A DNA stretch of 63,526 nt, counting the filler, from Streblomastix strix (taxonomy: Eukaryota), in NCBI GenBank assembly GCA_008636045.1. It is 4 parts of 4 records of this genome, joined end to end, with 100 filler letters (N's around TTAATTAATTAA, not from the genome) between each part and the next. Parts side by side here need not be neighbours in the genome. Positions count along the whole stretch, not along the records: positions 31,823 to 47,624 come from SNRW01000933.1; 3 more parts are not named here. One strand, given 5' to 3'. The notes under the pieces are model-generated. The model had not been told where the DNA came from, did no database searches, and saw only the letters and a program-made list of their open reading frames with translations. Every line of letters starts with the position of its first letter. The stretch's first letter is position 1. The translations under genes and the position numbers were made by a program. This document shows, in pieces, positions 1 to 61,804 of this stretch.

Positions 1-1
1 A

Positions 2-442: not shown

Positions 443-848
443 GAGTAATAACAACTTGATCGACAGAAAAATATACATTTTTATGCACTAGCTTATAATT
501 ATTTGTACAATTTTAGTAATACAGATAATACTATATTAGCAAAGGAGTCGATGAAGAAATTATTAGATATAGATTCAGATAAAAGAGTTTTTGAAGTTGT
601 GTATTATTATACTAGTTATTTGCTAACTGATGATTATAATAAATTATGGGATAAATATAAGAGTTGGGTTGAGGATGAAAATCCTGAATTCTATAAATTT
701 ATCATTGCATAAAAGGTTCATGATTAATAAATTTCTTAAGCGAGATTTGATAAAATCAATCAAAGACCTTATAGTGACTCAAGATCATAATCAATTAAAC
801 CATAAATTTAAGTATATTAACCTATTAAATTAATTAACCAATTTTGAA
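431..848 (+). pseudogene. Hypothetical element protein, disrupted
   Basis: TAAATG start at 431; MAL*EQQQLDRQKNIHFYALAYNYLYNF...LWDKYKSWVEDENPEFYKFIIAQK; TGA at codon 4; reading decays after ~850. Confidence 0.45.
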
Positions 849-1898
849 GATTCCAACTATTTAACCTTTGATACCTAAATCAAAAGTAAAAAAACAAAGC
901 AAATCAAAAACTTTTGTTAATGAACTTAATAAATTAAAGTAATAATTAATAGAAATAATTGGTGAATAGGAGTAATTCAATTTAGATAATGATATAGATT
1001 CAAACATAACAATAACTGCAATGCTTTAATAAGAAAATATTAATACGAAACAATCATTTTATAATACTATTCTGAATCATAAGTTCAATTAATCAGTTCA
1101 AAGTATTGGATTATAAAACATAAACTATTAAATTTGTAGATTAATTTCTTAGCTAATGGTATGACTAATATATCTTATAATTTAGTGAGAGATATCCATA
1201 GAAAATTTATGCTTTATAGTCTAAACCAAAGAAATTTAATAAGCTCTAGAATGATAACTTATTCCAAAAAATAACATAAAATCAATTCCCTTTCAAATCA
1301 AAGTATGATGTCATTCGAGTAGTTAATGAAAAAGACCAATGCCCTCACATTGATAAACACAGTGATTTGCCCACGTCAGAAACATCCAATATTATGACGA
1401 ATTGCTGACATATGAAAAATGAATAGATTATCTAGAACCGAAAATCAAAGAATAAATTGATATTAATAAAGAAATACGTATAAAATAATAAATTATAACA
1501 TTTAGGAATATCATTAGTAATGAAAAATAATTGATATGATTTACGATATGCATTTATGATAAAAAAAATTGGTATGATTTATGATTTGCGTTAATAAAAA
1601 AATAATTTATCTGATTTCTGAGACGCACAAATAAATAGGATTTAGGCAATGTTTCGGGCATTTGTCTTTCTCATTAACTACTCGCACAGAGCTAGCTTAT
1701 TTATCTAATTTTCCCACGATTAGTAATCTGTCCGATTAAGTTTTCATTAACGAAGTTGAAATAATGGCATCGACTAGCTGGTCGATGAGTGAAATACGTT
1801 ATTTGATGAAATTTATGGTGATAAAAGTTATTGATTGGACTGATGGTTATGTCGAATTAAGCGGGGCAATGAAAAAGATTAATGGTGCGGATGAATGA

Positions 1899-2064
1899 GA
1901 TGAATTATCTACCTGCACGAGGACTATTCTAAGACAATTCTTGAATTAGTGTTCTGACATTGAGATATATATTAATTTATCCATCTGCACGGGGTGCTCT
2001 ACCTGCACGGGGTAAGTTGATAAACTATTTTGATATCTGTCATTAAAAATTATTGCCATAAATT
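1899..2064 (+). repeat. ~166-bp repeat block copy 1 (three CTGCACG(G/A)GG cores)
   Basis: Aligns by eye along its length with 2132-2297, e.g. shared AAGACAATTCTTGAATTAGTGTTCTGAC and ACCTGCACGGGGTAAGTTGATAAACTATTTTGA. Confidence 0.92.
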
Positions 2065-2131
2065 TGAATCATGAAGAAATCGATTGAATTATCTTAAATG
2101 AAAAATAAGACAGATAAGACAAGACAAGACA

Positions 2132-2297
2132 GATGAATTATCAACCTGCACGGGGACTATCTTAAGACAATTCTTGAATTAGTGTTCTGACGTGGAGATA
2201 TACATTAATTTATCCACCTGCACGGGGTGCACGACCTGCACGGGGTAAGTTGATAAACTATTTTGAGATCTGCCATTGACAATTATTGCCATAAATT
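2132..2297 (+). repeat. ~166-bp repeat block copy 2 (direct)
   Basis: Direct copy of 1899-2064, ending ~50 bp before the primase-helicase ATG. Confidence 0.92.
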
Positions 2298-2348
2298 AAG
2301 TAAAAATTATTTTTCTCATGCTATTTCAATATTTTATCCGAAAGTAAA

Positions 2349-5126: not shown

Positions 5127-5193
5127 ATAAAAGTGATCGTGCAGTTAAATGAATGAATTTATTTTTTGTGCTAGAATCATAGAGTAATGAATC

Positions 5194-5283
5194 AATTTGT
5201 CCATCTGCACGGGGTGCACGGCCTGCACGGGGTAACTTGATAAACTATTTTAGGTGCTGCCATAAGCCATTAATGCCGTAATT
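5194..5283 (+). repeat. Repeat block copy 3 (partial, direct)
   Basis: AATTTGTCCATCTGCACGGGGTGCACGGCCTGCACGGGGTAACTTGATAAACTATTTT matches the 3' half of copies 1 and 2. Confidence 0.88.
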
Positions 5284-5417
5284 GAAATATTAAGAGTTAG
5301 TACCATTCTGAAGTGAGTAATATTTTATAAGATGAACGATTTTGATTATTGCATGTAATCATCGGATCATATTTATTTTTCCTTATGATTCTGCTAATAT
5401 GGTGTTGAATTAAATAT

Positions 5418-5567
5418 AATTACGGCAATATGGCAAATTGCAGCATCTCAAATTATTTATCAACTTACCCCGTGCAGGCCGTGTACCCCGTGCAGATGGA
5501 CAAATTAGTGCATATCTCCATGTCAGAACACTAATTCAAGAATTATCTTAAAATTGTCCCCTTGCAG
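5418..5567 (-). repeat. Repeat block copy 4 (inverted, near full length)
   Basis: TATCAACTTACCCCGTGCAGGCCGTGTACCCCGTGCAGATGGACAAATT...GTCAGAACACTAATTCAAGAATT is the reverse complement of copies 1-3. Confidence 0.9.
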
Positions 5568-5987
5568 TGCATGTGTACTCGAAATATTTGATATAATATC
5601 TCATTAGCACATACTTGATTAACGCACATCATTAACGTAAAAATAAATCAGAGCTACCGACCGACCAACTATTATTTTTGCCAATTTTAGGGGGTCCAAC
5701 CCTGCACACCTGCACACATGAATAATTCACTTCATTTGCCCACTTCGCTAAAGCACATCATTAATGCAAAAAAAATCACATTCACTAGTTATATCGATCA
5801 ATTATATCACTAATTTAAAGTAAATCCTAAACGTTAGTTATGATAGTTTTCTAAAGATGCCGAATCAACAGTAGTTACAAATCGTTAGCATATGCACAGA
5901 ATTCCTATCGCTGAATTCTATATTTTTATTGTGCATGAGATCGTTACTCTGCGGCAATGCGTTCGGCTTCGCATGCTCACAATCAAA

Positions 5988-6839
5988 TCACACTCTAATC
6001 ATATTCAGTATTTTAATAATTAATTTACTAGTATTATCATCTAAATTTAATGTAGAATATTGTTGCTATGTTCGTTAATTATCATTGATAATCTCATGAA
6101 ATCTATTCAAATCTATCTCTTATATCTCTACTCTGTAGATACCTGCATCACCACTCTTGATCTATCGTTTCTTCATTGTTTCTTCAAAACTGATGCTCTT
6201 GAACATTTCATACATTAATTGTTTTATTTACATATTATATCGTTATGCAGTTGATGGAGAATCAAATGAGTCGGTTAATTAGTATATATTTTCTAGAAAC
6301 AATAATATTCCCTTTCTACCATTCCCATCTTCATGTGGATAAATGCGTTCGTATAATAGATAACACGCAAACATAACCATAACCATATTTGATTGATCAT
6401 ACTCATTAGCGAAGTCCACCAGTTCTTAAAGCTCAATTGGATCGATATTTTTATGTTGGATTCCAACGTTAGCTGCAGAGATTATTTTTGATTTATTCTT
6501 ATCACTAACATATACACTACAATGCCTAAATGTCTCTCTTTTGGTTAGTGCTTAGTATAGTTCATCGATCTATGGCACTTTCCTATTCTTAAGGTACTCT
6601 ATTGCTTCATTAATGTTATCCTTTGGTAATATATCATATTCAATACAGTTAGAATCCATAATATTTTTATACATTAATCTATCTGCTTCAATCGTATCTA
6701 TTACCTTACCTATTTAATCACATCCATCATCATTCAACAATATTGTAAATTCTTTAATTTTTATCGAATATTTTGATATCATTTTAATAATAAATGAAAT
6801 GCTATTCAATATAGTTATTAGAACATCATTAACGTTCAT
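5988..6839 (-). CDS. Fic/DOC-domain protein (~283 aa), divergent active site
   Basis: Open frame with TAR=Q; ...LYERIYPHEDGNGRKGILLFLE (motif 6341-6306) versus the Fic consensus HPFxDGNGRxxR. Confidence 0.78.
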
Positions 6840-6972
6840 CACTATTGAAAACATTGTCTTGTTTCTTATTGCTGCATCTGCATATAACACCATAACCAAA
6901 GAAAAAGAAAAGACTTCAATAAATTTACTATTTTATTCATGATTATCAACTAGTAATTTTTGGTAGGAATAA

Positions 6973-7566
6973 ATGTCTTTGAAACGATCAGTATCACCAT
7001 CTGAAAAAATTTATTAAAACGAACCAATGTCTCCTCGTTAATCAGTACCGATTATTCCTGCAATAGTTGAAGTAGATTCACCATTCGAAAAGGAATAAGA
7101 TAAAGTGTCTGTATAATCTGTTCGTTCAAGAAGAAGATCATCTATACTTGAAGAAATAATTGTTCCAGATCCATCAATATGTCGATGGCTACTTGATATA
7201 ATTAGTGAAGATGAACATATGACTAATGAACCTGCACATTTCATATTATCCGAACATTAATTAATAAGAGTAATTGCATATATATTTTATGTAGTGGAAA
7301 ACGAAGTTATCCTTAATACTGAAGATGAAGGATGTTGTGGAAAATTTATGCACGATGGCACTAGAATATTAAGAGAAATTACAATTAATAATGTTATTAT
7401 ACTTACTCTAGATATCGATAAAGTCAATCTTCTCAGAGATTCATATAAAATATGCTTATAAAAAGTGAGAAAAATAACTAGTATATTAGATCTTGGAGAT
7501 ATCTCATCAAATTTAATGTCTGCAACAAGTAAAGGATTAATGGCAGTTCTATCTCAGATTTATTGA
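6973..7566 (+). CDS. Hypothetical element protein (197 aa)
   Basis: TAAATG start, open to TGA 7564-7566 with TAR=Q (MSLKRSVSPSEK...EDEGCCGKF...VLSQIY); no domain recognised. Confidence 0.65.
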
Positions 7567-7593
7567 TTGATCTATATTATTTTTGGTAATTAA

Positions 7594-10110
7594 ATGGCTG
7601 ATACAGACTTACACTCTTTAGATGTACTCTTAATTTACAATGAAATTCTGTATGGAAACGTTCGTCATAATACTATTGGCTTGATTGAGTAAGTTACAAA
7701 TATTAACAATCAAATTAATAATATAAATAATGCTCCTGCACCTGATGTATATACTAAACCTGAAGCAAATGAAATATTTGATACAAAAGCTGATAAATCA
7801 GAGACATATTCTAAGACAGATACTGATACATTATTAGATGCAAAAGCAGATAAAACCGACACTTATACGAAAACTGAAACCGATACTCTACTCGATGCAA
7901 AAGCAGATAATACTGACAATTATATGAAAACTGAAACCGATACTCTACTCGATGATAATGCAAATAAAACTGAATTAATTGACTTATATTCCAAGACAGA
8001 AGACTACGCACTCTTATTATTGAAAGCAAATGTTGCTGATTTGACCAATTATGTAGATTTAACTTCTGTACAAACAATAACAGGATAAAAATAAATCAGT
8101 ATGATTAATATTTCAAGCAAATCGAAATTGAGTAAAAATGACGCTTCTATTCATCTTGCAGGTAGAGGAGATATGTTAGTAAGTTCATTAGTAACTTAAT
8201 CATAATTATAAGAAGTTGGAGATATTGCTACTGGAAAGCCAAAAATATGTATTCTCTACGTAAGATGAGTTGAATGACTGGATGGCTGTTCAAGATAATG
8301 TAGCAAAATTGGTAATTGGAGATAATTTATATATTGCTGATAAGGAAGTTACTGATTATTGGTGGGATGGAACTGATTTAAAAGTGTTAGAAACAGAATT
8401 ACCAGATATGAGTAATGTTATAACAACCCAACGAACAGCTACTGGAGGAGGTAATGCAATAACTGATATATCAATTGATGGTAATGTACTAACACCAGCG
8501 AAAAATAAAAATTTTGTAGATACAGATTATGATCAAAGTATTAGTGGTTAAAAGACATTTAATACAACAATACATTCAGTTGGAATCACAGATTCAATAT
8601 ATGATAATACATTTGTTATTTGTGCGTGTGGAGGAGTTAGATCAATTGCAGATATTTAAAATACCTCATATTCCAGATCAGAGGATGATGCACTTTTATT
8701 ATTGAAAGCTGATAAATCAACAACATATACCAAGACTGAAGATGATTCACTTTTACTATTGAAAGTTGATAAGACATAACTGATTGATTCATACTCTAAA
8801 GGTGAGACATATAATCTCTTAAGTAATAAAGCAGATACTGGAGTTTCCTATACGAAAGGTGAAGATGATGCACTCTTATTATTGAAAGCTGATAAATCAA
8901 CAACATATACCAAGACAGAACCTGATCAATTAATATCTAAGATTGATGTCGGAGATGTTGATTTGACTTATTATTACAATAAAACAAAAACAGATGAATT
9001 ATTAGGAGAGAAAGCTGACGCAATCGAACTATATAATTATATTACATTAGGTACTTTATAAACAATTAATGCAAATAAGACATTCAATAAGGCTTGTAGA
9101 TTCACAAGTACAATAGATTGAATGTCAACAATTACTGGATCATCATTTATCAAATCAGGAGCAGATAATGCAGTTGTATTACTTGGAGCAGGTGGTACTA
9201 AACCAATTACAGAATTTGGGGGAAGTGTTGATGATTCGAATTATGTGAAGAAAACAGGATAAGCAACATAAAATATCGCAGGAAATTTAATAAGATCAGA
9301 TAGTGAAGATTCTTTTGATTATTTATAACCTAGATAATATGCTACAAAATATAGTATCGATGGTGCTTACGTTAAGAAAACAGGAAAAGAAACATAATCA
9401 ATCGAAGGAAATTTAAAAAGAAGCGGCAGTGAAATATTATTTGAAAATCTTTACCCATTCCAATATATAATCAAATAGGATGCAAAGTACGGATTTGTAT
9501 AAAAAGAAGGATAACAGGTATAAGAAATCGAAGGAAAATTACGTAGAAAACAAGATGATAAAAAATCTGAAAATGGTGACTATTTAACAAAAGATGAGAT
9601 GGATAATAAATATGTAACACTTGGAGGAACTTAAACGATTACTGGTATAAAAACATTTATTATATCAGTAACTGCACCAACATTTGTAAAATATAGCGGA
9701 ACTAATTAACAAGTACTATTGGCAGATGGAACTGTTTAACAATTATCTGAATTTGGAGGAGTGCAAGTGGAAGACATTACAAATTTAATTGTCAATTTAT
9801 ATTCAATTATTACATTGAATTATTTAAAACTTACTCGAATAGGTACTTTTTATATTTTAATGATGGAAATTCAACCAAAAACTTAATTCAATATCTCAGC
9901 ATAATTTATTATTTGTAGTATTGGAAATATCGGTACTGGCATATCTCCTCCAACGCCTCCAAGTACTACATATCTTATTTAGTTAGCAACGAAGCGAAGG
10001 ACATTAATATATTCGCACTCATATAGAGAAATTCGAATAACTGCGGATTCAACAGAAGCTTGGGGTGTTAATGATGATGTTGGCTTAAAAATTTAGTTGG
10101 ATGCTTTGAT
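7594..10110 (+). pseudogene. Tail-fibre/virion-fibre-like repeat protein, disrupted
   Basis: Tandem KADKxxTYxKxExDxLL repeats (~7785-8030, ~8665-9020), QTITGxK/QSISGQKTF/QTITGIKTF fibre motifs, three VxKxG..Q.I.G.L repeats; frameshift ~8245, TGA 9119-9121, probable frameshift ~10090. Confidence 0.75.
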
Positions 10111-10170
10111 AATAAGCACATTCATATTACCTATCAAATAAGTTTAATACTTTTATTTTTGAACTATGAA

Positions 10171-11031
10171 ATGAATTATGAAATAGGCAGTGTATACATA
10201 GATGAAGCATTATTAGAAGCTGCAGGACTATTAGAATTTCCAGAATGTTATGCGTATATTATCGAGAGCGATCAAGAGCCAGTTCCACTAGCATAACGAA
10301 TACCAATCAGAGAATAAACCTTACAAAAATAAGTGAAAGATAATGATGACATTCTCTTTAATACAAACGAATTGTTCATTCCTCCATTTTCAAATGCTCC
10401 TACAAAATTAGACTTAAGTTCATAGCTAGAACGATCTAGTTTCCTAGCATCATGTGGATCAGATCCATAATTAATTGTGTACGGTGATCGTGTTACATTA
10501 ACCGCGTCATATGAAACTTCTGGATTATTTCCCAATGGTTATTTATTCAAAAGTTATCCAGAAGAAGCGAGACCAAAAGCAGGAGATAAAGTGATTGCAT
10601 TAGTTGGAACAGATACTACGAATAAAAATAGTATATTTTGTTATATCGATTAGTATGGACCATTTATCATCAGTACATCAAAGATTCCTTCAAAAACTGG
10701 TCTCTTTATAAACGTAACTAATTATAAAAAATATGAGTCATCTAATAAAATAAATTATGATGCAAATAATGATGGCATAGTAAATATAATGGATACTTGG
10801 CACGTCAATGGTAAAGGAACATTCGAAACATAATCTCATGTATATGATACTGTGAAAAAATAAACTGATTTAATTGCAACTGGATTGTTTGGAGATAATA
10901 AAGTAAATTATTTAAATAGTGATATAAAATTATAGGATGAATTAGCAATCTATTAAGCGGATAGAGCAGCATTCTTCATTAAAAATATAACTATAAATGC
11001 TTTAAATAAATCAAAAAACAAAAAACAATGA
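10171..11031 (+). CDS. Putative virion/receptor-binding protein with a dockerin/EF-hand-like loop (286 aa)
   Basis: Open with TAR=Q; LFKSYPEEARPK resembles the LP..xRP motif of fibre tip domains; DANNDGIVNIMD at 10759-10794. Confidence 0.55.
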
Positions 11032-12482
11032 ATGATTGTATCTAAAAAAATGTATTACTAAGCAGAATGTTTGAATAAATCTACAAAAAAATGCATTTAA
11101 TAAGAAAAAAATCAAAATTCTTGTTGTTAATCAAATAATACGAACATAAATCTAACTAATTCAGATAAAATTCTGAAACAAAGCAAATGTATGCAATGAG
11201 TGAATATATTAATTAGTCAATCTCTACAGTAAAAAACGACAAGTTGAACACATATTTAAATAGAAGTCGAATTAATTAGCCATATTTTTTGTTTACATGT
11301 ATTAGATACTTTTGAAATTACATTTGATATTTATTCATGATATAGAATCACATCTTAGGTAGCTTTTGGAGCAAATATCGTATATGATTTAACTATTCTT
11401 TTTTAATCGATCAAACTTTTTTAATATCTATAGTTTTGAATATATTGAAAAATTTAAGGGCAGCGTATATAATTTTATCAAGCAAAACATAAATCTAAAT
11501 TTAATATGCAAAATAATTAAAAATTCGAATTCCTATCAAATTATTTAACAATTTCTTTAACAAATCGTTTCTTTATTTTTTAACTGTAATTCTTTACTTA
11601 ATAAATATTGCTTGTTTGAGCAGATTATGAAATTAGTTTATGTAATACCAAATTTGTGAATCAATAATGTGAAACAAAACAAATGAATGATAAAGATTAA
11701 TGGAAGGAATTGAATTAAATATATGAGTATGATATATGAATATTATTAATGGATTTAATTAATAGAAGTAATCATGCAAATAATGAAGGTTTATTATAAA
11801 TTGAGACGGATTATACAATTAGAATAAATGAAGAATTATCCTCATCGTAATATTTAAAATGAAATAAACTAATTAAAACAAATTTTATACAAAAATTGAT
11901 GGAATAGAAATTAATATTTTTTAATCTCGGGCATTTTAAACTCTGCCGGTAGATACTGGTTAATAGTTTCGGGAAAATTATCCACTATTAATTATAGATT
12001 TAATTAATAAAATTATCCCTTCAAAAAAATAAAGATCTGAATTTTACAGCTATATTCTCTAAATACTTTAACACCAATATTTACAGATATTATCACGGTA
12101 AGGTATATTTTCAATGCTCTTAAATATTCAGCAGCCACATTTTAATTATCTTACATTATTAATATCTCCTTCGTCGTGAGTTTATAAAAAATCGTGCTAC
12201 TACACATAACATCGCTTACCATTTATGCATATGCTAATATTAATCAATAAAATTTTAATTGCTGTTGATTTTTCCACCTTCATTTATATCATTGACTTAA
12301 CCTGCGCATAATTCTACCGGCTTAAAATAATTTTTTAAAAATTATGTTTTTATTTGCTATCTTTCACTATTATCAATGTATTCCAACTATTTTTTATTTC
12401 AAAATATCACTTCTTTATTTTATTCAAATAAATTAGCAAAATCCTTATATTTTAACTTTATTTTTTTATATAAAACTTTAGA

Positions 12483-31822: not shown

Positions 31823-32299
31823 CCAAGTTTGCAACGATCAAGGAAGTCTTTATATATTGGGAATCGTTGATCAATCCAGAGCGAGTTGCTTACATTGAAT
31901 ACTTAGATGGTGTTTTCCATTTACTTTCCCATGGTTAGAATTGCTTGGAAATCGAGTGGCTGAACAAATAATAATAAAAATAAAACTAAATAAATAATTT
32001 TTAGTATGTCATACCGTCTTTCCAGTGGGAATATGAAGCAAACGTATAAATGCCTCTAATGTCTGTCCTGCTGATCCAGATGAAGCAAGAGCAAGCGCTT
32101 CATGAATTGAGAGTGGTGAGAAAAATACGCTTTTTCCTGGAGAGGTTATCTCTTATAATTTTGGTAATATTTCAGAAGAAAATGAGCAAATAGCTCTGCT
32201 TTACTCATCTCTGCTTTGCATGATAAGAGGAGGCTTTAAGCCAGGAGGAGGAAACACGAATGAAGGTCCAGGAGATGGAGTTTCGATTATTTTAGCCAT
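31823..32299 (-). CDS. Serpin, N-terminal part (truncated by contig end)
   Basis: KSVFFSPLSIHEALALASSGSAGQT and, after one intron, NVSNSLWIDQRFPIYKDFL, matching serpin s6B/hB/hC and s2A signatures. Confidence 0.88.
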
Positions 32300-33167
32300 T
32301 AATTTGCTATTATAAAGAAATATAAATAAATAAAATATTAAATTGTGATAAAAAGAATAAAATAATTATAAATTATAAGAAAAAATAATATAAATTTGTT
32401 TGGAAGTTAAGAAAAAATGAAATTTTAATTTTTTCATGAATTCATCTTTCCATGTCCAAATAAAGGTTAAAATGAAATAAAATTTAACTATTAAAATAAA
32501 TAGCGCATGTAAAAGTAAATTATTAAATTAATATTAATATTTAAAGGTTAGATACCACAAATTTTGAGAGATTATTACATTCGTGTATATTTGGAATTAT
32601 TCACTATTTATACTGTTCAGCAAATATTAATTTTATAAAAAAATGATAATTCTTAAATTTTCTTCAATTAACTCGCAAAGTAATAAATTTATTTTTTTAA
32701 GCTTATTTTCGCAGCCATCTTTGGTAAATAATAGTTATTGTGTAAATATAATTTTTATGAAATATTTATTATTATTTTATTTCTGATTTGATGATGAAAA
32801 GCACTTCTTTAAAGACAAAAAATTAATTCTCTTGAATTATTTTTACTGTTCTACTAATTAACCTGCAAATTTTAACTTTTATTTTTTCATTTTATAGAAA
32901 CTATATTAATATCCAATATATTTTATATATTATTTTAAAACACTTGTTTTATAACATTTGAAAGCAATAAATAAATTTTCAAATCAAATTCTTCTTTCAC
33001 ATCACAATTTTAAATTTGTAATTTCATCATTATAATATTTAATTTCTTTAAATTGAAATATTTTCTTGTTATCAATTCAAAATGAAAAAAAATATGTTAA
33101 AATGACACAAATTTTATTTATTTCAATTATTTTTATTTTTTCTATTCAAAACAATTAGTAATTAAAG

Positions 33168-36100
33168 ATGTCTAGGGTTGAAGATTGTATGTAATAATTT
33201 TTATAATAATTTTATTCTCATATTTTTATTATTTGTTCATAAGACGAAATCATACGACAATTGAAAGGTGGATCGATCGGAAAAGCATTTCTTACTAAAT
33301 TAAAGAAAACAGGAGTTTTATATGTCTTAAAGCGTTTGGAATATTTTATGTCTGATGACAAAAAACATGTTGATGCTTTGGTAGCATAAATATAACATCT
33401 TGAATCACGATATACAGTTTATATCTTTTATTAATTTTCTATTTAATTTATACTATTATTTATTTGTATATTTCAAATATTGTTCCACAAAAATTGTTAT
33501 AATATAAGATGAAACTAATTTGTACATTTGCAGATAGAATGGATTTGTGCCTCATCTTTGAATTTTGCGAATTTGGTGATATTTACAAAGGTATTGTTGG
33601 AATATAAGAACTATCAGAAGAAGAGCAACAAAATGTATAATTTTATTTATTTTTATTAATTTTCAATTATTTAAATATTATCATTGTAATTAACAGCGTG
33701 TATGGGAAATTTTAGCATAGATAGCAAGATCTCTGGATTTTTTACATTCACAAAATATTATTCATCAGTTTATTGAAATATTTTTTCATAAAATTATTTG
33801 GTTTTGTTTATATTTAATACAATAATATTTTCAGAAACATAAAGCCATCCAATATCTTTTTGATGGAAGATGGTTCTGTGAAATTGGGCATGTCATTTAA
33901 TTTTTATACTTTAGAATATTTATTATTTATACTGATTTTTTATTTTTAGATGGAATTGGATTAACTGATGAATCAACAAACAAATATTATCAGATAATGA
34001 TAAAATCAAAGTTTGTTTTTTTAACTTATTTTTAATAATATTTTTGAATTATTTTGCAAACGAATAGTATCTATTAAGCGCCTGAAGTTTAATTAAATAA
34101 AAAGTATGATATAATTAATTTATATTTTCCATAACAAACAAATCCTTCTTTCTTTTTTTAATCTCAATCAATAGGATGGATTAAAGCTCAAATGTATTCT
34201 CTTTAGGTTGCATAATCCATGAAGCACTCACAGGATAGCATCCTTTCTTTGCTCCAACTAAACAGGAGATGATTGAAAAGATTAGAAAAGGTTAGTTTAC
34301 TGAACTTCCTGATTGGATTGAGCCAGAAATGAAGGATTTAGTGTTGGCTATGATGAATTAAGTTTATTTATTTATTTATTTTTTGTTTATTTATTTACAA
34401 TATATTTTTTTAAAATTACATATCTTAATTTCAATCAGAATCCTGATAAAAGACCAACAATTAAAAGAATCATTGAGATGAAAAAGATTAAAAGTCTGAT
34501 TAGTCATTTTATTGAAAATGAATAAATTAGAGAATTGACCATTGAAAAGCTAAAAAGGATGAAAGATGAAGTATAAACTGTAGAAAATGATAAGAAGTCT
34601 TCAGTTTGTTTAATAACTAAAGTCTCTGAAGGATTGAAAACTGTTCGATATATCAGAACAGGTAATGAAATACAAATAAATGGAAAGATTTATGAACTGA
34701 TTAAAGAAGTAACTGAAAATTGTGCATCAATAATATCTAGAGTAATTTAAAGCGAAGAAGATGTAGAACTTGCATTTCAGCACAATCTTATCTAAGTTCT
34801 TATTGATTTACTTCGATGCACACCACTTGATGATATTACTCCAAGTATGACAAAAGCATTTGAGATAATTAGTGATTAAGGATCATCAGTACAAACGCAC
34901 AGATTGTTTGAGATGAGCACAATACATTCTCTTGTTCAAATAATTAGAATTAAAGATAAGGATATTCTATTGAACATACTCAAGACTTTCATACATATCA
35001 TTAAGAATGGGTGGAGTCAAATAAAAACATCTTAATCTTAATATGCTTAATAATAATTTAATTTGCAGTAATTACTTCAACCTAATTCGCATCCATACCT
35101 GGTTTAATTAGAAAAAGATGCAATAATAAGAATAATAATTGAAGATTTATTAGCGAATGAAAGTACGTATTTATGGTGCAAATACAAAATATGCGAAATT
35201 CTTGATATTCTTTATCCAGAAGGTGCTCAACTACCATCAGATTTACAACCATAAATAATTAATTAGCTTTATTCACCAATGAAATAAAAACATGAGATTG
35301 AGCCATATGCATTGTAATCACTGTCATACTTGGCTATAAATTACGGTTTGTTATTATTTAAATGATAATAAGAAAAATTTAGAATATTTGTGTTAATTAT
35401 ATTTTCTTTTATAATCATATTTATTATTCATTATTATTAGGTAACCATGGAGCTATTATTGCTGGAGGAGGAGTTAATATAGCATCTGAATATATTATGT
35501 ATGAAAAAGCATTGATCATTTAATTGTAATTAAAATTATCTAAATTTTATTTAATTAATTTTCTAACATCTTTTTTATTATAATCTTCACATTAGGAAAA
35601 ATTCAAAAAGCGAAAGGATCAATTCTTCTATTGCATATATTTCTCTGAAATTTTTGCATAATCTATTCTTATTTGGAAGTAAAAATACTCAGTAATAAAT
35701 ATTAAACTCAATTAATGCAAAATAACTTAATAATTTAATTAATAACAAAAGTTTTACATAGAAAGAAAAAGCTATGAAATTATTGAGTGCTTTTTCAGAT
35801 CCAGAAGGAATGAGGTAATTGTTGCAAATAAGAAAAATAATTGAAATTAAAAATAAAAATGAATAAATTGAATTGATAAAAGCTGGATTAATGACCTTAT
35901 TAATTGAAAATTTAAATTAAACTGTTGAGTAACAAGAATGTGAAGGAAAAAGGATTATAATAATAAAAATAATAAATCTATTGACATTTGATAACATTGA
36001 AGCAAAACAGATAATTCTCGAAGAAACAAATTTTGTAGATGGTTATATCCATTTCATAAACATTCTTCCATTTAACAAAGTGTTCATTGAACTATTCGAT

Positions 36101-37224
36101 GTTTTATGGGAATTGTCTGTATTTCAACCAAAAGATTAGAAATATACATTATTTTCAAAAGCAATAATTCAAACATTGATGAGAATTCTTGAATTAAAAG
36201 ACTATTTTATTAGATTAAAAGTGTGCGTAATAATATTAAATGTTATTAATTCTGGATTAATTGACATTAAAGAAGGTGAAAATCATCCATTTCTCAAACC
36301 TTTAAATGATGATAAGAAAATTGAAAAACTCTTTCAAATGATGAAAGATAAATAATATGAAAATATCCACAGATAAATTGCACACATTCTTGCTTATTTA
36401 TTCAAAGCTGCATTACTTCCAATTGAAATAAGCAAAATTGTAATCAAATAACTGAAAACTGATGAAGATTTTGAAGGACTTGCTTTTTTAGCGGAGAATA
36501 TAGGTAAAATATTAATAAAAATATTAAATTTATTAAATTTATTTATTTCTATTAATTTTATTTCAATTCATCTGAAGGTCACCACGACATTATTCTGTCT
36601 AAAGACTTTGAAAAGAAAATATTTGAAAATTAAAGCAAAACTTATGAAGCTGTTAAATTAACACTTACGCTTCTTCATATTGGATCAGATGAGAATAAGA
36701 AGAAGATTTCCATATCAGTATATTAAAATGTAGAGAATTTGGCAGATGATGAATATGTGAATGAATTTGGTAATAAATAAATAATAAAATGGAAATAGGA
36801 TTTGAAAGAAGAGATAATTTTGAAAGCAAAAGAAATTCTTTTGATCATAAATGATATTTTTGGAGAAAAGATAAAAATATTATAATCTTCGCAATCAATA
36901 TAATAATCTTCAAAACAAACATCTTTATCTTCATTTAAATCCTTCATTACAAATACTTTTAGTTCTTTCATCACTGGATCAACCAAATAAGTGTAAACTG
37001 TTTACATTGATGATAGAAAAGAGAAAGAAAAATAATATATTGTATAATAAATGCAAGAAAAAGAATAAATAAAGGAAAAGGAAAACGAATAAAATTAGGA
37101 TTAAGAATCAGAATGGACTAAAGATAAGGTAAAATAATAGGAAGAAAGTTTAGAGATAGAGAATGATGACTAATCTAAGAAAATGAATGAAAATGCTTAA
37201 GATGATTAGAAAGAGAATAATTGA
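33168..37224 (+). CDS. NEK-like pseudokinase with C-terminal ARM-like repeats, multi-exon
   Basis: LKGGSIGKAF, YVLKR, catalytic loop HQNIKPSN instead of HRD, DGIG instead of DFG, YQAPE, HPF, NPDKRPT; then helical repeats containing HP(Y/F)L. Confidence 0.85.
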
Positions 37225-37489
37225 TATAAAAGATATAAATGATGAAGTATAAATCTGATGATAATCAAGTTGAATGATATGATAAAATTAGTATTCATCA
37301 TTTCGTTGGCAAAATACTTTCCATTTTATTGATTTTCAAAAGCTGTGTAATAAATATAAAAATTTAATTAAAAAATGACTATTTATTATTTAAGTATTTC
37401 AAGATTGGTTAATTAATTACAAAAGTTAATTGATTAAAAATTTGAAGTGAAATGGTTTATAAAATTAGTGAAAAAATGTTTTCAATTAA

Positions 37490-40999
<3,510 letters not shown>

Positions 41000-41639
41000 T
41001 ATACTCACTGAAAAGATTATTATGTAAAATAAAGAAATTAAACAATAAATCAGATCTATAATCAAAATTTAATTTTAGGATATTTAATTCCGTTTTTTAA
41101 AAAGAAAAATTTAAATTAATTTTAATTATAGTAAATGGAATTTGTTATAATAATTTAAAATATTCGATTTATTTATAAAAAATTAAATTTAGAATTATGT
41201 AACAAGTGTAGCGAGCACATTATTTAAAGAAATTTATTTTATTAAAAATAAATGTTTTAGCTATGTTAAAAATAAATTTTTATAATATAATTAACTTTAA
41301 ATAAAATATATGTATTTAATATGAATAATTCAATATATGAAATACATTGGTATCGCCCAAGAAATTATATTTTTTGAAATAATAATTCTTTTAATGTGTA
41401 ATAGTTTAATTATTTTATGAAGGTGGTGTTATATGGTATCTTTATCGATTTTATGATGCCAACAAAATCTACTGAGTGTTGCACGGATGAAAAAATAATA
41501 GTAAATTTTTTTTCAAATTTCATCTAAATCTTAAATTATTATTTTGTTTTAAAAAAATAGATATAAGTGAAATAAAATATATTTATTTGAGAAGTTTGCA
41601 CATTAAAGAATTTATGATTAATATTTTTTATAAATTATT

Positions 41640-42344
41640 TTTTCTCATCAACCTTAGATATATATTTCATCTCAAACTACCTCCTGAAGTTAGTTACAAC
41701 ATCCAAATCTTTCCTAATTCGATCATTCTCTTGTTTCAACTTACCATTCTGCCATTCAATTTATTCCTTTTCTATTTCTAATTCATTTGAACTCAAACTC
41801 AATTTCTGGTTTATTTTCTCCAACTCATCAATTTTTTCAGCCATTTATTTCTTCTCTTCTTTTTCATACCTCAATTCTTATTCTGCTTTTCTTTTCTCTT
41901 TCTCTTTTTGAATCAGACTTGTTCACATTTTATTTTCTTTCTTAATCACTTTTTCTTTTTTTTCTTTTTATGATGTTTCGTTGGCTTTTTGATTTTGTCT
42001 TCGTCATTCAATCTTTGCTGTTTTTCATTTCGGAGCTGCGTTTCGATTATTTTCTTTTCTTCGCAGTTTTTCGCTTCAATTTCGTCTTTTTCTCTTCTGA
42101 GGGTATCATTATCGGATCTGAGTTTATTAATTTGTAACTCTAATGAAGCCCTTGCCTGAAAATAAGTAATCAAAAATAAATATTATTATAAGAAATTAAA
42201 CTTTATATAGTTATCATTATTTTTTATTTATTTTTTATATAAAAAATGTTAAACCTCGGCATTCACAGCTTAGCTTCTAATAGTGTCATTGAAGCGAATA
42301 GAATCATCAAATAATTTCCCAGAATCGCTGTTTTGAAATGACAT
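41640..42344 (-). pseudogene. Coiled-coil protein, frameshifted remnant
   Basis: MSFQNSDSGKLF...AE, intron, ARASLELQINKLRSDNDTLRREK...; frame breaks in A-runs around 41990-41920; 3' end uncertain. Confidence 0.5.
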
Positions 42345-42568
42345 TGAAAACGAATCTAAGATAGGGGAGTAAAAAAAATAAAAAATAAAAATATTAATTA
42401 AAAAAATTGAAAATTTGTTCAAGGCATATTTGAATAATAAATTTGTAGAAATTGTAGTTAATTAATTGTATATTTGAATAATTTATACTGATTATAAATT
42501 TTTTTTATGGAATTTATTTTCTGCTTTTTAAAGAAAAAAATTTCGCGGGTTTTATTTCGTTTGATAGA

Positions 42569-44616
42569 ATGGAAGAAAGTTCTGAGCGGACAAACAGAAA
42601 TTCTGTAATTGCAGGTGCAACCAACATCGAAGGAATTGTTTGAATATTTTCCATTTATTTTTAGTAGTTATTTACATTCAAATTTAAATTTTTTAAAAAG
42701 GCAAATATTCCGCAATTAGCTACTGATCTTCGGTCCTCTAATAGAGATTTACATTATCCTGCACTTTAGCGGCTGTTGATTGCAATTGTGATGGGTTTAA
42801 ACTCACAATTTTGATTTAATTTAAAATCTTATTTTTTTTAAAATATATTTTTTTTACCGCTCATAAAACTCAAAATTTTCTTTATTTTTAGATTCATAAA
42901 ACATTGAAGTTGTCATTTAATAAGATATTATTGGAAGTCTATCCAATTTTCTTGTATCTGAAGTAAGACCAGAGATTCAAGTTTTTTTTTAATTTTTTTT
43001 CTAGAATTTCTATTTTCAATCAATTATATAGGAACTGAGTAGTGCAATTATTGGAGTGCTAGGAGTCCATGGCTTACGTCGAAAGAAACATAGTCGTGCT
43101 TCTTCGAGTAGCTGGGCCCTTATTCAGATTATTCTTGTTTGGAAATTTTTTTTAGATTTTAATTAAAATATTGTTTTATTTATGTTCAGAATTCAGATGA
43201 AATTCTTTCTAGATAAGGAACCGAAGCGTTGTGCAAATTGATTGTAGCTGATGAATAAATCCGTGATGTAATGCTTTCAAGACGATTCGTTGATCTTGTT
43301 CTTGAAACTTTGACTGATCAAAAATCAATTAAGAAACAAAATTCATCATCATCATCAGAATAAGAAGAGGAATCTGAACCTATCTTTGTGAAAGTTGGAT
43401 TACTTACTGTAGTTCAGAAGTTGGCTGAAGAAACTGAAAATCCAATAATTATTGGCGCTTTAATACCAATATTAGAAGAAATTAAAAAGAATGGAGAAAA
43501 AGAAATGATGAAAAAAGCCAGGACAATTTTAGGATGTTTACGAGAATAAGAAATCACAGCTCCATAATCAGATGAAACAAATGAAAGAAATGAAAAGGTT
43601 TGATAATTGGAAGAAATAAATCGGAGACTCGAAGAATAACTTCGAAGGAATGATGAAGAAAAAGAAAGAGAAAAAATAGAAAAAGAAGAAAATAAAAGGA
43701 AAATTGCTGAACTTTAGAGAAAAGATGAATAAAATAAAAGAAAAATCATTGATCTCGAGAGATAACTTGCAGATTCAAAATCAATGCCCATCACTAATAG
43801 CCAAAATGCTTCTTAACCCAATTCAGATGAAATTCCAATTTCAATCACAGTTCCATCTGGATCATATAAAAAGAAAGAAGCAGAATTCACTTACACATCA
43901 ACAAAGAAAGAATATAAGACATTCCCAATTAGTCCAGCAATTTCTAATGGAGTTTGCAGATGCGAAATGAAGTTAATCAAAAAGGGAGATAAACGTTTGA
44001 TTATATTTTTCTTAATTGAATTTAATTCATTTTGTTTTAATAATTATTCAGATGTTGGTGTTATGAAGTCTGGATTGAATGTTCCATTTGACAAGTTCCC
44101 AGGCCATGAACCTTGTATGATAATTTTTTCAAATATATAACTTTTTTTTATTAATATTTTATTTATTAATATTTTACATCTATTTTGTTCAAATTGTTAA
44201 GATTGCAGGGATAGCACTGTATTTTACAAAATGTATTTAAACTTAATTTTTTAGACAAATTAATTTTGTTATCATTGTCTAGTGGAGACGTTGGTTAATT
44301 TTCTTAATATACTGAAGGGAACCAATAAATGAAAGACGGGGATCTGGTTTCAATAGAAGTTAATATGGATGCAAAGCCACGAACTGCTCATCTGTTCATA
44401 AATGGGCACTAATAACCTGTCTTTGTTTCTGGATTGCCTGAATCTATTCAATTTTGGGTTTGCATTTTAATTGGTTAAATAAATTAATTTTTGATGATTT
44501 TGTATAAGTTCTTCTTAAATTGGAAAGATGATTAAATTACTGTTCTTTCCCTAAAGAAATTGACTTCATCAAGTGTTGCTTAGATTCCCAATGAAAAAGA
44601 GGTGAAGTGGGGATGA
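42569..44616 (+). CDS. ARM-like plus coiled-coil plus C-terminal SPRY/B30.2-like protein, multi-exon, one internal TGA
   Basis: C-terminal VGVMKSG...GNQQMKDGDLVSIEVNMDAKPRTAHLFINGHQQPVFVSGLP...VKWG; in-frame TGA 43601-43603 within the coiled coil. Confidence 0.72.
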
Positions 44617-45441
44617 AAAGTGACCAATTATTACTTCTACCCCATAAGAATTATGTACATAAAATTGATTGATACTATTAAATAAAAAATAAACGATTTA
44701 ATAAATTTCAAAAGATCTTTTTTTTCTAATTTTATTCCATTATCATTTTATATTGGCCAACCATTAATAAATTCTTTCAATAAATATTGCTGGATAATTG
44801 TTCTAATTGTGTAAATAAATTATCTCTTTCCGCATATTAATATCTATATTTATCATCGAAGAATGCAGCAACTAATTAGCTATAATGTATTTGTAATTCA
44901 ATACTTACTTTCACAATTAGATAAAGTGGATCAATAATCTCATATATTGCTTATAAAGAATAGTCATTTAACAGATGGAAGAAAAATTATTGATTACAGA
45001 ATTAAATTTTGATATATAAAACAAATTAAAATAATTTTCATTAAAATAACTATTAGTGTTGTTGTATTAAATATACTATTAAACCACAAAGAATTTCAAA
45101 AATAGACTAATGCAATACATACTAAAGAATAATTAAAACTAGTAATAAACTCGTTTATGAAAAGAAAAATAATCTTAAAATTGTTAAAAGAATATTTAAA
45201 AAAATAAAATTAACATAAAAAGAAGATGCTAAAAATAAAATTCTTCTAGAAAATGAAATAATAAATATCAATTTAAGTGATTGTAAATAAAAAATATTTA
45301 ATCTATTCATAATAAATAGCAAAATTAAGACTTGTTAAAATAACATTTATTATAAAATAAATTAAATCATAATATTATCATTGAAAATCAAATTCTAAAG
45401 ATGTTTCAACGAATTTAAATTAAAAAGAATCATATTTTGAA

Positions 45442-47070
45442 TCAGTGATCGATTCTGGCTGACAGAATATGCAGAATCTCATCAAACAGACGAGAAAATG
45501 TTTCCTGCTATATCCAAGTATCGAAATCAATTGTTTATAAGAATAATGTTTCTGATTCGTTTAAGATTCTTATAGGAATAGCAAATATTCGAGCGAAGCA
45601 GCTGTTCTTATATACAATATCTCGATGAATTTTCATTGTAGCAATGAAAAGAACAACAAGAAAAGTTTCAATGGGTAAAAATTCGCCCTTTCTGGAAAAT
45701 GCTATAAAAAACCCCTGAGGGGTCATTTTTGAGTTAATAATAAATTGTTAATCTATGACTTCGGACTCATAGGTTTTTGAAGTCTTTCATATATGTTAAT
45801 TGAAAATTTATCAAGAAACATGTCAGGATTATTTTTTTGCAAAGAATCACAAGTTTTAAGAATTAAGATTGAATTGTATGTTAGTTGTATTAATTTAACT
45901 GAATTTTACAAAATTGATAAGATTTTTAAGTTTAAAAAGGTATTTTTGGCCAAGAATGATGACAATTTCCATAAGCTCAATTTTCACGTACTGTTATGCC
46001 AACAGTTTAGTTACAATTTGCTTAGCTAATATTATTTCTTTTATTATTTTGCATATTTAAAGTTATTATAATAACAATTGTCCATATTTTTTTACTTGAT
46101 AGCCACGAATTCATGTTGTAAAATATCAGTCATAAAACTCATGTTTCTAATTGAATCGTTCATCCATACACTTTTAAAATTTCGTTTATTTAATAAATAT
46201 ATTTTTAAATCAGATTTTATACAACAATTATATATTTTTAATTATTGGTAATCGAGAAATTCTAATCGCGATAAAGAAATTGCGCACTGGCCTACAAAAA
46301 TTCTCAAAACTTTTATTTTTTACTTTTTCGCTTTTATTGTTATGCGACATATCAAATAAATATTAAATTTTCAAATTATTTAAACTTTTAAAAATCGAGC
46401 TGTTTTTTCTAATTTTCTGTTCCAACTTCATCTCTGATAATATTTTATTGAAACGATATATATTTTATTTCGTTTGCCCCTCGTTCAAATAGTTTTCCAG
46501 AAGATTGGATATATTTAAACAATTACTTATCATAAAAAATTTCCAATTTTTTTATCCAGATCCAAGCATTATTGAGTAATTTAATGCCTTGAAATTATTT
46601 AATTTGAGGGGCGAACCGCACATTTTCTGGATCATTTTCTTAATTTCAACCTCATTATGTATATCGCGATTTCCTCGAAACGATCCGTCAGGGGTTTTTC
46701 CAGAAAGCGCGAATTTTTACCCAATGTTATTCGCTTTTAGAATTTGAACACCCTTCAAATTTTATTTCTATACGAATCTTTGTAGAAGAGCTATCGCAAT
46801 GATGCATTCTTCAATAGATAAACAAGCATTCACCTTCAAAAAATTGAGGAAATTTGCCAAATTCGAAATTGTGACATTTGAACCTGTGCCTGGAACATGG
46901 ATCTCCAAATTCTTCAAGAGCTCTTGAGCAATCAATTAGAAGTAGATATCAGCTACATTGACATAAAGTAAATTGTCCAGAATACAATTGTCGTCAGCAA
47001 TCTCAAGTTTTTTATTTCGAACTTTCATTTCATTGCTTGGATTATATCTTCCCTCATTTACAATATTCAT
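45442..47070 (-). CDS. PHO80/Pcl-like cyclin interrupted by a TIR transposon
   Basis: N-half ...FLKVNACLSIEECIIAIALLQRF...ILKANNI and C-half IETFLVVLFIATMKIHRDIVYKNSCFARIFAIPIRILNESETLFLQTIDF join in frame into one cyclin box when 45673-46722 and one TSD are removed. Confidence 0.82.
45673..46722. mobile_element. 1050-bp non-autonomous TIR DNA transposon with 3-bp TSD (PIF/Harbinger-like termini)
   Basis: Left TIR GGGTAAAAATTCGCCCTTTCTGGAAAA, right TIR TTTTCCAGAAAGCGCGAATTTTTACCC (26/27 match), inner AAAAACCCCTGA/TCAGGGGTTTTT; TSD AAT at 45670-45672 and 46723-46725; no transposase recognised. Confidence 0.92.
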
Positions 47071-47624
47071 TATGTATTAATCTGTAAAATAAAAAGTAGA
47101 ATAAAAGTAAATAATTTTTATTTTGATTTTAAATATATTTTGTTGGTAAATTAGTCTTTATTTTTATCTCACTGTATGGTAAAAAATAGAAAAATTAAAC
47201 TATTAAAAATAAATAGTTTACCGCTTGTGTTCATTTAATTTAGTATTAATTCGATTATTAAACCTTCAAAGTTTAGAAATAAATCAGAGGTTTTATTTAA
47301 TGGAAAAATTAAATAGGATTTCAATATGAATTATCAATGTCTCTAATAAACCGTCACATCCAAAATTAAGCATGTTAAGAACAACTTTTTTTGGCCCAAA
47401 TTGTCTGTCCAAGATTTTTGAAATGTCCAAGCATTGAAAATGCTAAAATATATATATCAATAATTAGAAATTTAAAGGACTTCTTTTTGTATATTTTTTT
47501 TAATTGGTTTACCGAAATAATGTTCATTATATCAATTTCTAAGTATATAAAATACTGATTTTGTATATAAATATAAACGTTTTATTATATTGATTTAAAT
47601 TATCTTTTTATTCTTTATTATTCA

Positions 47625-50668: not shown

Positions 50669-51180
50669 GCGAGGCGATATCTAAGAGGTTAAAAAAATGA
50701 AATATAATATAAAAATAATATAAAAAATAATATAGTTAAATTTGTTTGTTAACATAATTATATGTTAGTGCCAATCAATGAATAATATTGCTTTAGAAAA
50801 AAAATCAGTTTCGTTTGATATCAGAATAAAGGTACTTGTAAATATTAAAAAATGAAATTAAAGAACGTTATTCTAAAAAATTTGATAAGAATACATATTT
50901 TATTTGAAGGAGAATATAAATACTGGTGAGAAATAACTGTTTTTAATTTCTGCGCTTTTTCCTCTTTCTGTACAAGGTTAATATTCATCAAAATGGTGCA
51001 ATAATATAAAAAATAAATATGTATGTATTTTTAAATAAGTATTATTTTAAAAGAATATCTAAAGAACAAGGAAAAGGAAAAACTACGCAGTTTTTAAATG
51101 TTTACAGGTAGTTAAATAAATATTAGCGTTGAAATAATTAAGTTAAAAATATTTTTATTATTAAAGTTAAACACATTCCA

Positions 51181-60741: not shown

Positions 60742-61804
60742 CTATGTATTATTTTTTCAAGAAAATGAAAAAGATAAATAAATAAAATATTTTAAAAATA
60801 ATAAGAAATACATTGATATGATTAGTTAAATACATTTAAATATATGAAACATTGCAAAATATAGCAAAAAAATGAAAATTTGATAATAATTTTTTCAAAT
60901 TGTAATTTCATGTCCATTATATTGAGATATGCAAAATTTTGAATATAATTTGTATAAAAATAGTTGTATCTTAGAAAATATAAGACGGATTCAAACGATC
61001 TAAAGTCAGATAAAACCAACCAATTAATACAACAATTTATGGGGAATTCTGGTTTGCTTCCGTATTGTGCACAATTATTATAAATTTGAATATTAAAATA
61101 CATGCAATATTTAAATAACTAATATTTTCTAAAAGATTAGTTAGAAAAATGGAAATTTGATAATTTCATTTTATTAATTCTTTAAATATAATTTATTATA
61201 AAATTTATTTAAAAATATATATTTTTTATTTTATTATAGCATTCCACCATTTTGATGAATATTCACCTTGTACATAAAGTGAAAAAAGCGCAAATATTAA
61301 AAAGCAACTATTTCTCATCAGATTTTATATTAAAAACTAAATAAAATACCGTAGACGACTTTAAAAGTAATCGGAGAACATAATACGTAATAAAGGTGAA
61401 ATTTACGATTATTTTTTGCAATTTAGCAAGAAGGCAGCTAATTTCTATTCAATTCATTTCTTTATAAATTAGTTATATATATTAGCCACAAATACACCAC
61501 TTTGAATAAAAAAATTTTGATATTGTCCAATTTTTATCCAAAATATTGCAATTTTGTATTTTTTATTTATTTATACAAATTTAATAACGTACACACTTAT
61601 AATCTCTATGAAGCCACTTTTTTCTGCATATTAATAAACGTGAATATTATATTGCTCTACCTATTATTCGTATTTCAAAATTTTCAAATATTAGCGAAGT
61701 TTGCTTTCTATTAAAATTTTCTTATAATACAATAATTTAACATTAATTTGCCTAATTTCTCATATATATATTAAATTTGAATTATATTTTTTATTAAGCT
61801 TAGG

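What the first reader, a model, noticed from the sequence alone, without database searches (positions are those of the whole stretch)
45670..46725. TIR transposon whose inverted repeats encode splice sites that would remove it in frame (introner-like element in a cyclin gene)
Seen: a 1050-bp element with 27-bp TIRs and an AAT TSD splits a cyclin box. Read inward, each TIR starts GG|GTAAAA (donor-like); read outward it ends TTTTCCAG|AAAG(G/C)GCGAATTTTTACCC (pyrimidine run plus AG). On the cyclin strand an intron 46720-45692 leaves 2 + 19 + 3 (TSD) = 24 nt, restoring the frame as ...NNI-GKGEFLPI-ETFLVV with no TGA. Because both signals lie in the TIR, the same 24-nt residue would result in either orientation and any phase. 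Both cyclin halves lack stops and frameshifts. Inference: a splice-out, intron-generating DNA transposon that leaves an 8-codon scar. Introners are known from other eukaryotes; I do not know of this family being described.
Basis: partly seen in the sequence, partly recalled or inferred. Interest (0 to 1): 0.9.

Follow-up and report, generated by a model that had tools for sequence, protein, structure and literature searches.

The report
Transposon interrupting a spare cyclin gene
A 1,050-base jumping-DNA element from a multi-copy family sits inside one of several cyclin-like genes of a termite-gut protist, and although its ends contain splice-like signals that could remove it in frame, these signals fit the host's own introns poorly, so it is likely an ordinary gene-breaking insertion.

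Summary
The anatomy is real. A 1,050-bp element (45673-46722) with 27-bp TIRs (26/27 matching) and an AAT duplication splits a PF08613 cyclin whose closest relatives are Streblomastix strix proteins. Paralogous empty sites lack exactly 1,053 bp. The element belongs to a multi-copy family, and its ends (GG, ANT duplication) fit Pangu/PHIS transposons. The 24-nt in-frame arithmetic is correct. The introner reading is poorly supported. In 27 hand-mapped host introns (50-109 nt), 0 have another AG within 26 nt upstream of the acceptor. The proposed 1,029-nt intron has AGs 10 and 23 nt upstream, both frameshifting, and its acceptor outscores only 1 of 27 true ones (0 of 27 in the reverse orientation). 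The predicted TIR stem buries both proposed sites. Shuffled TIRs pass the same in-frame test 8-13% of the time. The gene has a Gly-to-Glu change at a residue kept in 6 of 6 paralogs. In favour: GTAAAA is a real host donor (2 of 27). Two published introner screens list S. strix with zero families, with a filter caveat. Splicing itself remains untested. The scan has noted this pattern on other DNA before.

The parts
46723..47070 (-). Cyclin-like gene, 5' half (ATG at 47070, 116 codons, ends ...KANNI)
   Evidence: Open under table 6; 61-87% identical to five S. strix proteins
46723..46725 (.). Target-site duplication, copy 1 (AAT on +, ATT = Ile codon on the cyclin strand)
   Evidence: empty site skips 1,053 bp
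45673..46722 (.). Non-autonomous TIR DNA transposon, 1,050 bp, 26% GC, no transposase found
   Evidence: multi-copy in run X1
46696..46722 (-). Right TIR, 27 bp (5' end on the cyclin strand)
46719..46720 (-). Proposed donor GT (G|GTAAAA): a rare but real host donor type; predicted base-paired in the TIR stem
   Evidence: 2 of 27 host introns start GTAAAA; scores above 5 of 27; unpaired probability 0.00
46688..46695 (-). Subterminal 8-bp extension of the inverted repeat, pairing with 45711-45718
45715..45717 (-). Competing CAG acceptor 23 nt upstream of the proposed one (frameshift, stop after 143 aa)
45700..45710 (-). 11-nt extra stretch of the left end; holds a competing TAG (45704-45702) 10 nt upstream of the proposed acceptor (frameshift, stop after 127 aa); predicted single-stranded bulge
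45692..45694 (-). Proposed acceptor CAG; leaves 19 nt of TIR in the exon; predicted base-paired
   Evidence: scores above 1 of 27 true acceptors; 8 of the other 37 scored AGs in the element score higher; unpaired probability 0.00
45673..45699 (+). Left TIR, 27 bp
   Evidence: 30 of 35 X1 contigs laid on 45632-45735 are at least 95% alike
45670..45672 (.). Target-site duplication, copy 2 (AAT)
45667..45669 (-). Glu codon where paralogs have an invariant Gly (one base differs, at 45668)
   Evidence: 6 of 6 paralogs covering the site have Gly; the X2 empty-site contig reads Gly
45442..45669 (-). Cyclin-like gene, 3' half with TGA stop at 45444-45442
   Evidence: Pfam PF08613 E 8.5e-07 with the duplication codon included

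Best explanation
A non-coding cut-and-paste DNA transposon with GG ends and an AAT duplication, from a multi-copy family that likely belongs to the Pangu/PHIS group, sits in the coding exon of one member of an expanded cyclin-like family in a Streblomastix-type oxymonad and likely inactivated that copy. Shown: the ends, the duplication, the empty sites, the family, the paralogs. Inferred: a transposase encoded elsewhere cut an ANT target with a 3-nt stagger and inserted the element. The GT belongs to the fixed end sequence (GGGTAAAA), and the in-frame GT/CAG pair is likely a coincidence of the TIR. Inferred: most transcripts either read into the element and stop at codon 287, or are mis-spliced at better or earlier AGs and shift frame, so little full-length cyclin is made. 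Close intact paralogs likely buffer the loss.
For: Host introns are short: 50-109 nt, median 68, in 27 hand-mapped introns of 4 window genes, which join into continuous frames (one gene keeps one in-exon TGA); 46-229 nt in 21 cDNA-confirmed introns (PMC1501061). The proposed intron is 1,029 nt and A-rich (41% A, 33% T) against 52% T in host introns. AG exclusion: 0 of 27 host acceptors have another AG within 26 nt upstream (chance per intron 0.52); the proposed one has AGs at 10 and 23 nt, both frameshifting. The proposed acceptor outscores 1 of 27 true acceptors, 8 of the other 37 scored AGs in the element score higher, and the reverse-orientation acceptor outscores 0 of 27. Both proposed sites are predicted fully paired in the TIR stem while the frameshifting UAG is unpaired. 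Shuffled TIRs pass the in-frame test 8-13% of the time. Gly-to-Glu at a site invariant in 6 of 6 paralogs. The 8-residue insert would fall four residues into a predicted core helix (residues 99-123 of P0002). Intact paralogs up to 84% identical exist. Two introner screens list S. strix with 0 families. The ends fit Pangu: ANT duplication, TIR 11-40 bp starting AG or GG (PMC4482050).
Against: GTAAAA starts 2 of 27 host introns and outscores 5 of 27 true donors, so the donor is usable. No variant was listed at the GT or CAG positions among 35 X1 contigs (weak, since differences near contig ends are not listed, and TIRs are conserved for transposition anyway). Both gene halves are open although this copy differs from at least 90% of the laid family depth at 16 listed positions; the chance of no indel at 2-5% divergence is 0.06-0.32 under an assumed indel rate. 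Private amino-acid changes (5 of 94 columns) are not clearly above those of intact paralogs (0, 1, 5, 6). Donor recognition can precede transcription of the 3' TIR, so the stem need not block it. The splice model rests on 27 hand-mapped introns without RNA. The published screens drop families whose similarity runs into exons, which could hide this one. The fold has mean pLDDT 58, and the retained Pro could re-cap the helix.
Confidence: 0.72

Rival explanations
1. Leaky rescue at this one locus: the spliceosome uses the TIR GT and, in a minority of transcripts, the in-frame CAG. A little 199-aa cyclin with an 8-residue insert is made beside frameshifted products. The family as a whole is not an introner.
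For: Donor type used by the host (2 of 27); CAG is a normal host acceptor triplet (10 of 27); the in-frame product has no stop; both halves are still open despite some age of the insertion.
Against: Length, AG exclusion and eight better-scoring AGs; sites buried in the predicted stem; five internal GTs outscore the TIR donor.
Confidence: 0.15
2. One reading: an introner family whose TIR encodes both splice sites, so that insertions in either orientation and any phase are spliced out leaving 8 codons.
For: The arithmetic is orientation- and phase-independent; the TIR is conserved across the family; PIF/Harbinger-class introners and introners of about 1 kb or more are listed in other lineages (PMC12130899 dataset); the Aureococcus precedent adds 4 residues.
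Against: The reverse-orientation acceptor scores -8.5, below all 27 true acceptors, with an AG 12 nt upstream. S. strix has 0 introner families in two screens (filter caveat). Only this one exonic copy is known. An 8-residue Gly/Pro-containing scar would damage most folded domains (inference).
Confidence: 0.05
3. The element is removed from mRNA by a spliceosome-independent, TIR-hairpin-triggered route like SOS splicing, imprecisely and not at the GT/AG sites.
For: The TIRs form a predicted duplex of about 35 bp (-56 kcal/mol); SOS splicing is triggered by paired inverted repeats and rarely uses GU-AG (PMC12779559).
Against: Described only in C. elegans and human cells in the passages read; the factors (AKAP17A, CAAP1, RTCB) were not looked for in oxymonads; even there, rescue failed for insertions in a conserved domain.
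Confidence: 0.05
4. The element-in-cyclin junctions are an assembly or amplification chimera.
For: No listed contig spans either junction or the whole stretch in the tables shown (tables cut).
Against: An exact 3-bp duplication with the reading frame continuing across it and a 1,053-bp empty-site difference is what transposition makes and a chimera would not; an X1 contig matches the 5' half with 0 differences over 177 bp.
Confidence: 0.03

Closest known systems
Pangu group of the PHIS (PIF/Harbinger-ISL2EU-Spy) superfamily (Han et al. 2015, PMC4482050; passages read)
   Same: 3-bp ANT duplication (AAT here; other family flanks end AAT or ATT), TIR within 11-40 bp starting GG, duplication confirmed by paralogous empty sites.
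   Different: This copy is 1,050 bp with no transposase; no autonomous partner was found; no oxymonad is among the 15 host genomes described in the passage read.
Aureococcus sp. Introners that carry both splice sites (Gozashti et al. 2022, PMC9860276 Fig. 2F-G)
   Same: Both splice signals inside the element; an in-frame scar made of element ends plus duplication.
   Different: There splicing is annotated family-wide and adds 12 bp; here 24 bp would be added, the intron would be about 10 times host size, the acceptor is weak, only one exonic copy is known and splicing is not shown.
PIF/Harbinger-class introners (Panicum virgatum fam10, Polarella glacialis families; PMC12130899 dataset file 8)
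   Same: Same broad superfamily; the Panicum family has GG/CC ends and a 3-bp duplication; one Polarella family spans about 1.1 kb.
   Different: Most listed rows co-opt both splice sites from the target; all passed a filter of four or more annotated introns in unrelated genes; S. strix has 0 families in that study.
SOS splicing of DNA transposons from mRNA (PMC12779559; passages)
   Same: Exonic TIR element whose ends would pair in the transcript.
   Different: Spliceosome-independent, imprecise, shown in animals; untested in oxymonads.

Membership tests
Pangu / PHIS DNA transposons | 5'-ANT-3' target-site duplication confirmed by an empty site | tested here: met
   AAT on both sides; empty site lacks 1,053 bp; 6 of 8 foreign-flank contigs align through AAT, the other 2 have a consensus giving ATT (7 of 11 loose-end rows shown)
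Pangu / PHIS DNA transposons | TIR 11-40 bp beginning AG or GG | tested here: met
   27-bp TIR starting GGG; definition
Pangu / PHIS DNA transposons | Autonomous partner with DDE transposase and a second ORF | tested here: inconclusive
   Two element ORFs have no Pfam hit above cut-off; one of them has no homolog among proteins of 93-298 aa; none of 63 other window ORFs hit a transposase family; loose ends show family variants with other inner sequence that could not be read
Pangu / PHIS DNA transposons | Transposase groups with Pangu/IS5 in a tree | not testable with these tools
   No transposase sequence in hand; no whole genome held
Introner | Repeated family of similar copies | tested here: met
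   X1 summed depth 150-1,750 over the element against 12-147 in flank-only bins (not a copy number); 8 contigs with foreign flanks at the left end
Introner | Four or more copies forming introns in non-paralogous genes | not testable with these tools
   Flanks of other copies were seen only as merged 30-letter consensus. Published screens: 0 families for S. strix, though their filter could drop a family that leaves 19 nt in the exon
Introner | Element is spliced out of the host mRNA | not testable with these tools
   No RNA data could be laid; see Tried and rejected
Introner | Splice signals that the host spliceosome is expected to use | tested here: not met
   Donor acceptable (2 of 27); acceptor breaks AG exclusion (0 of 27 exceptions), outscores 1 of 27, and 0 of 27 in reverse orientation; length 1,029 against 50-109 nt. 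A prediction from 27 hand-mapped introns, not an RNA result
PF08613 cyclin (S. strix expanded family) | Cyclin-box profile match and paralogy | tested here: met
   C-half E 8.5e-07, 29.9 bits against a cut-off of 21; the N-half has no Pfam hit alone but is 61-87% identical to S. strix proteins, two of which carry PF08613

The most novel reading that the evidence does not exclude
An oxymonad Pangu-like transposon family whose single TIR encodes both a donor and an acceptor, so that any exonic insertion, in either orientation or phase, becomes a 1-kb intron with a fixed 8-codon scar; it would have been missed by published introner screens because part of the TIR stays in the exon.
Probability: 0.06. 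Interest if true: 0.7.

Novelty: new member of a known kind. Interest (0 to 1): 0.22.

Why it matters
As most likely read, it is a modest addition: an apparently undescribed non-autonomous PHIS-like family in an oxymonad, and one more broken member of an expanded cyclin family. It also shows that an in-frame GT/AG pair in a TIR arises about one time in ten and must be checked against the host's own intron rules. If the introner reading were true, it would be an introner in a metamonad gut symbiont for which published screens found none, and a symmetric self-splicing-out design that current screens would likely filter away.

Tried and rejected
No whole genome is held, so no genome-wide TIR search, exon-enrichment test or search for an autonomous copy was possible. 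No RNA holder listed; this is no evidence on expression. Runs X1-X4 are contigs only; none showed a joint at the proposed splice sites, and X4 had no cover of the cyclin halves; absence in contigs proves nothing. The metagenome scan gave 6 exact 20-mer matches, all chance: no match beyond 21 bp at the TIR, GC 39-62%. The element's 170-aa open frame found no homolog (35 candidates, none at E up to 1). No annotated protein equal to the spliced (199 aa) or read-through (286 aa) product was listed among 5 and 7 hits, and none of 7 fetched proteins carries a scar pentapeptide; this says little about other genes. The search of 50%-identity representatives never ran, so exonic copies in other genes were not sought that way. 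P0002 found no PDB sequence match and its model no fold match at E up to 0.001; the top row was cyclin Y at E 1.5. A longer duplication with a shorter TIR was considered and rejected, since the ends are then not symmetric. One search had one intron end and one start codon misplaced; one search corrected them and its intron statistics are the ones used. The look-up of earlier findings by sequence gave one unrelated note, and by place none.

Full report
Setting. The window is four contigs joined by N spacers; the finding lies in the third (31823-47624). Frames are open under NCBI table 6, and all protein hits are Streblomastix strix, an oxymonad in which TAA and TAG encode Gln (PMC1501061). No whole genome was available.

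Observation. The element spans 45673-46722 (1,050 bp, 26% GC) with 27-bp TIRs identical at 26 of 27 positions and AAT on both sides. The TIR pattern matches twice in the window and never in 100 shuffles. It interrupts a minus-strand gene after codon 116; the 3' half hits Pfam PF08613 cyclin at E 8.5e-07. The proposed GT (46720) and CAG (45692) give a 1,029-nt intron and a 199-aa product. A contig of run X2, about 95% identical (23 other letters in 451), joins 45667 to 46721 and so lacks exactly element plus one duplication; a contig of X3 at about 88% shows the same empty site, as does a paralog in X1. These may be paralogs rather than the same locus.

The family. In X1 the summed contig depth is 150-1,750 across the element and 12-147 in flank-only bins, with many variant positions and inner rearrangements (depth is not a copy number). 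On the left end 35 contigs were laid, 30 of them at least 95% alike. Eight carry foreign flanks: six align through AAT and two have a consensus giving ATT (7 of 11 loose-end rows shown). Of the 40 difference rows shown out of 203, 23 lie in the element, and at 16 of these at least 90% of the laid depth differs from the window. So this copy is not brand new, or belongs to a minor subfamily. GG ends, a TIR of 11-40 bp and an ANT duplication define the Pangu group of PHIS transposons (PMC4482050, passages). No transposase was found in the element or in 63 other window ORFs, so membership rests on the ends alone.

Would the host splice it? I mapped 27 introns by hand in four window genes (two kinases, a DnaJ, and a gene at 42900-44620). 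Removing them gives continuous frames, with the DnaJ domains and kinase motifs restored; the fourth gene keeps one in-exon TGA. They are 50-109 nt long (median 68) and 52% T. The 21 cDNA-confirmed S. strix introns in PMC1501061 are 46-229 nt with conserved A, U, G at +3 to +5 (parts 1-2 of 4 read). Against: none of the 27 acceptors has another AG within 26 nt upstream (chance 0.52 each at intron composition), while the proposed acceptor has a TAG 10 nt and a CAG 23 nt upstream, which give stops after 127 and 143 aa. The proposed acceptor outscores 1 of 27 true ones, and 8 of the other 37 scored AGs in the element score higher. In the reverse orientation the acceptor scores below all 27, which undercuts the either-orientation claim. 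Five GTs inside the element outscore the TIR donor. In the folded transcript the two TIRs pair; the proposed GU and CAG have unpaired probability 0.00 and the frameshifting UAG about 1.0. This is an equilibrium prediction, and the donor could be bound before the far TIR is made. The model is small and hand-built, without RNA.

Is the coincidence surprising? Shuffled TIRs carry an early GT and a reverse-strand acceptor that leave a multiple of three with no TGA in 8-13% of 20,000 trials per setting (six settings). Open halves are weak evidence: only 1.4% of single changes make a stop, so P(no stop) is 0.67-0.85 at 2-5% divergence. The chance of no indel is lower, 0.06-0.32 under an assumed rate of 0.1 per substitution, which counts mildly for continued function.

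The gene. Six paralogs covering the site all have Gly after NNI or its equivalent; this copy has Glu right after the 3' duplication. Overall it has 5 private changes in 94 otherwise invariant columns, against 0, 1, 5 and 6 for four intact paralogs and 9 for the truncated P0001, so decay is not shown. The closest intact paralog is 84% identical. In a low-confidence model of P0002 (mean pLDDT 58) the site lies four residues into the helix at 99-123; tolerance of an 8-residue insert cannot be excluded.

Literature. Introners that carry both splice sites and add codons are known (Aureococcus, +12 bp; PMC9860276, part 2 of 7), and PIF/Harbinger-class introners are listed in PMC12130899 (dataset file 8; part 2 of 7 and the methods section read). 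Both studies list S. strix with zero introner families (12 of 14 supplementary files searched, file cut when stored). Their pipeline drops families whose similarity runs into exons and depends on annotation, so this zero is weak for an element that would leave 19 nt in the exon. Whether the window derives from the assembly they screened was not established. SOS splicing (PMC12779559, passages) is an imprecise, spliceosome-independent route shown in animals; the lead came from an earlier scan note. A review (PMC11282704, part 2 of 5) states that exonic insertion usually inactivates the gene. Passages of PMC8767320 and PMC6759080 give mean intron lengths of 119-124 nt in Monocercomonoides. I found no description of this family in the listings of searches; the S. 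strix genome paper was not read, and repeat libraries were not available.

Verdict. Shown: a real, multi-copy, Pangu-like non-coding TIR element in a cyclin exon with an in-frame GT/CAG pair. Inferred: it most likely breaks a redundant paralog (0.72). Leaky in-frame splicing at this locus is possible (0.15); a true introner family is unlikely (0.05). Only RNA junction reads can settle it. Interest 0.22.

Noticed in passing
window 1-11100 (first contig): Genes without apparent introns and with a virus-like look: HNH_3, a DUF5906 helicase-like ORF behind a 690-aa ORF, and repeat-rich ORFs with a weak baseplate hit, several broken by TGA. Endogenous DNA viruses using table 6 are reported for S. 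strix (PMC10120064, passages), so this is likely a decayed endogenous protist virus.
   Followed up: partly
window 1898-2064, 2131-2297, 5178-5295, 5420-5567: A dispersed repeat of about 120-170 bp, 77-92% alike, in both orientations; the last two copies form an imperfect inverted pair.
   Followed up: no
window 50913-51080 and 61164-61331: A 170-bp sequence, 81% alike and in opposite orientations, lies 250-600 bp upstream of the DnaJ gene and of a kinase gene; possibly another small mobile element.
   Followed up: no
window 33888-33949 (+): A probable GC-AG intron (GCATGT donor) in a kinase-like gene with altered catalytic motifs (HQNIKP, LDGIG).
   Followed up: partly
window 43601-43603 (+): An in-frame TGA inside the long exon of the gene at 42900-44620, which otherwise splices to an open frame: a premature stop or two adjacent genes.
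   Followed up: no
27 hand-mapped introns, window 33187-60698: 5 of 27 acceptors are AAG and 11 of 27 donors have T at +3, wider than the YAG and GTATG consensus reported from 21 introns in PMC1501061.
   Followed up: partly
window 46491-46525 and 46372-46429: Short inner segments of the element are shared with otherwise unlike contigs in runs X3 and X4, suggesting related element families with common inner motifs.
   Followed up: no
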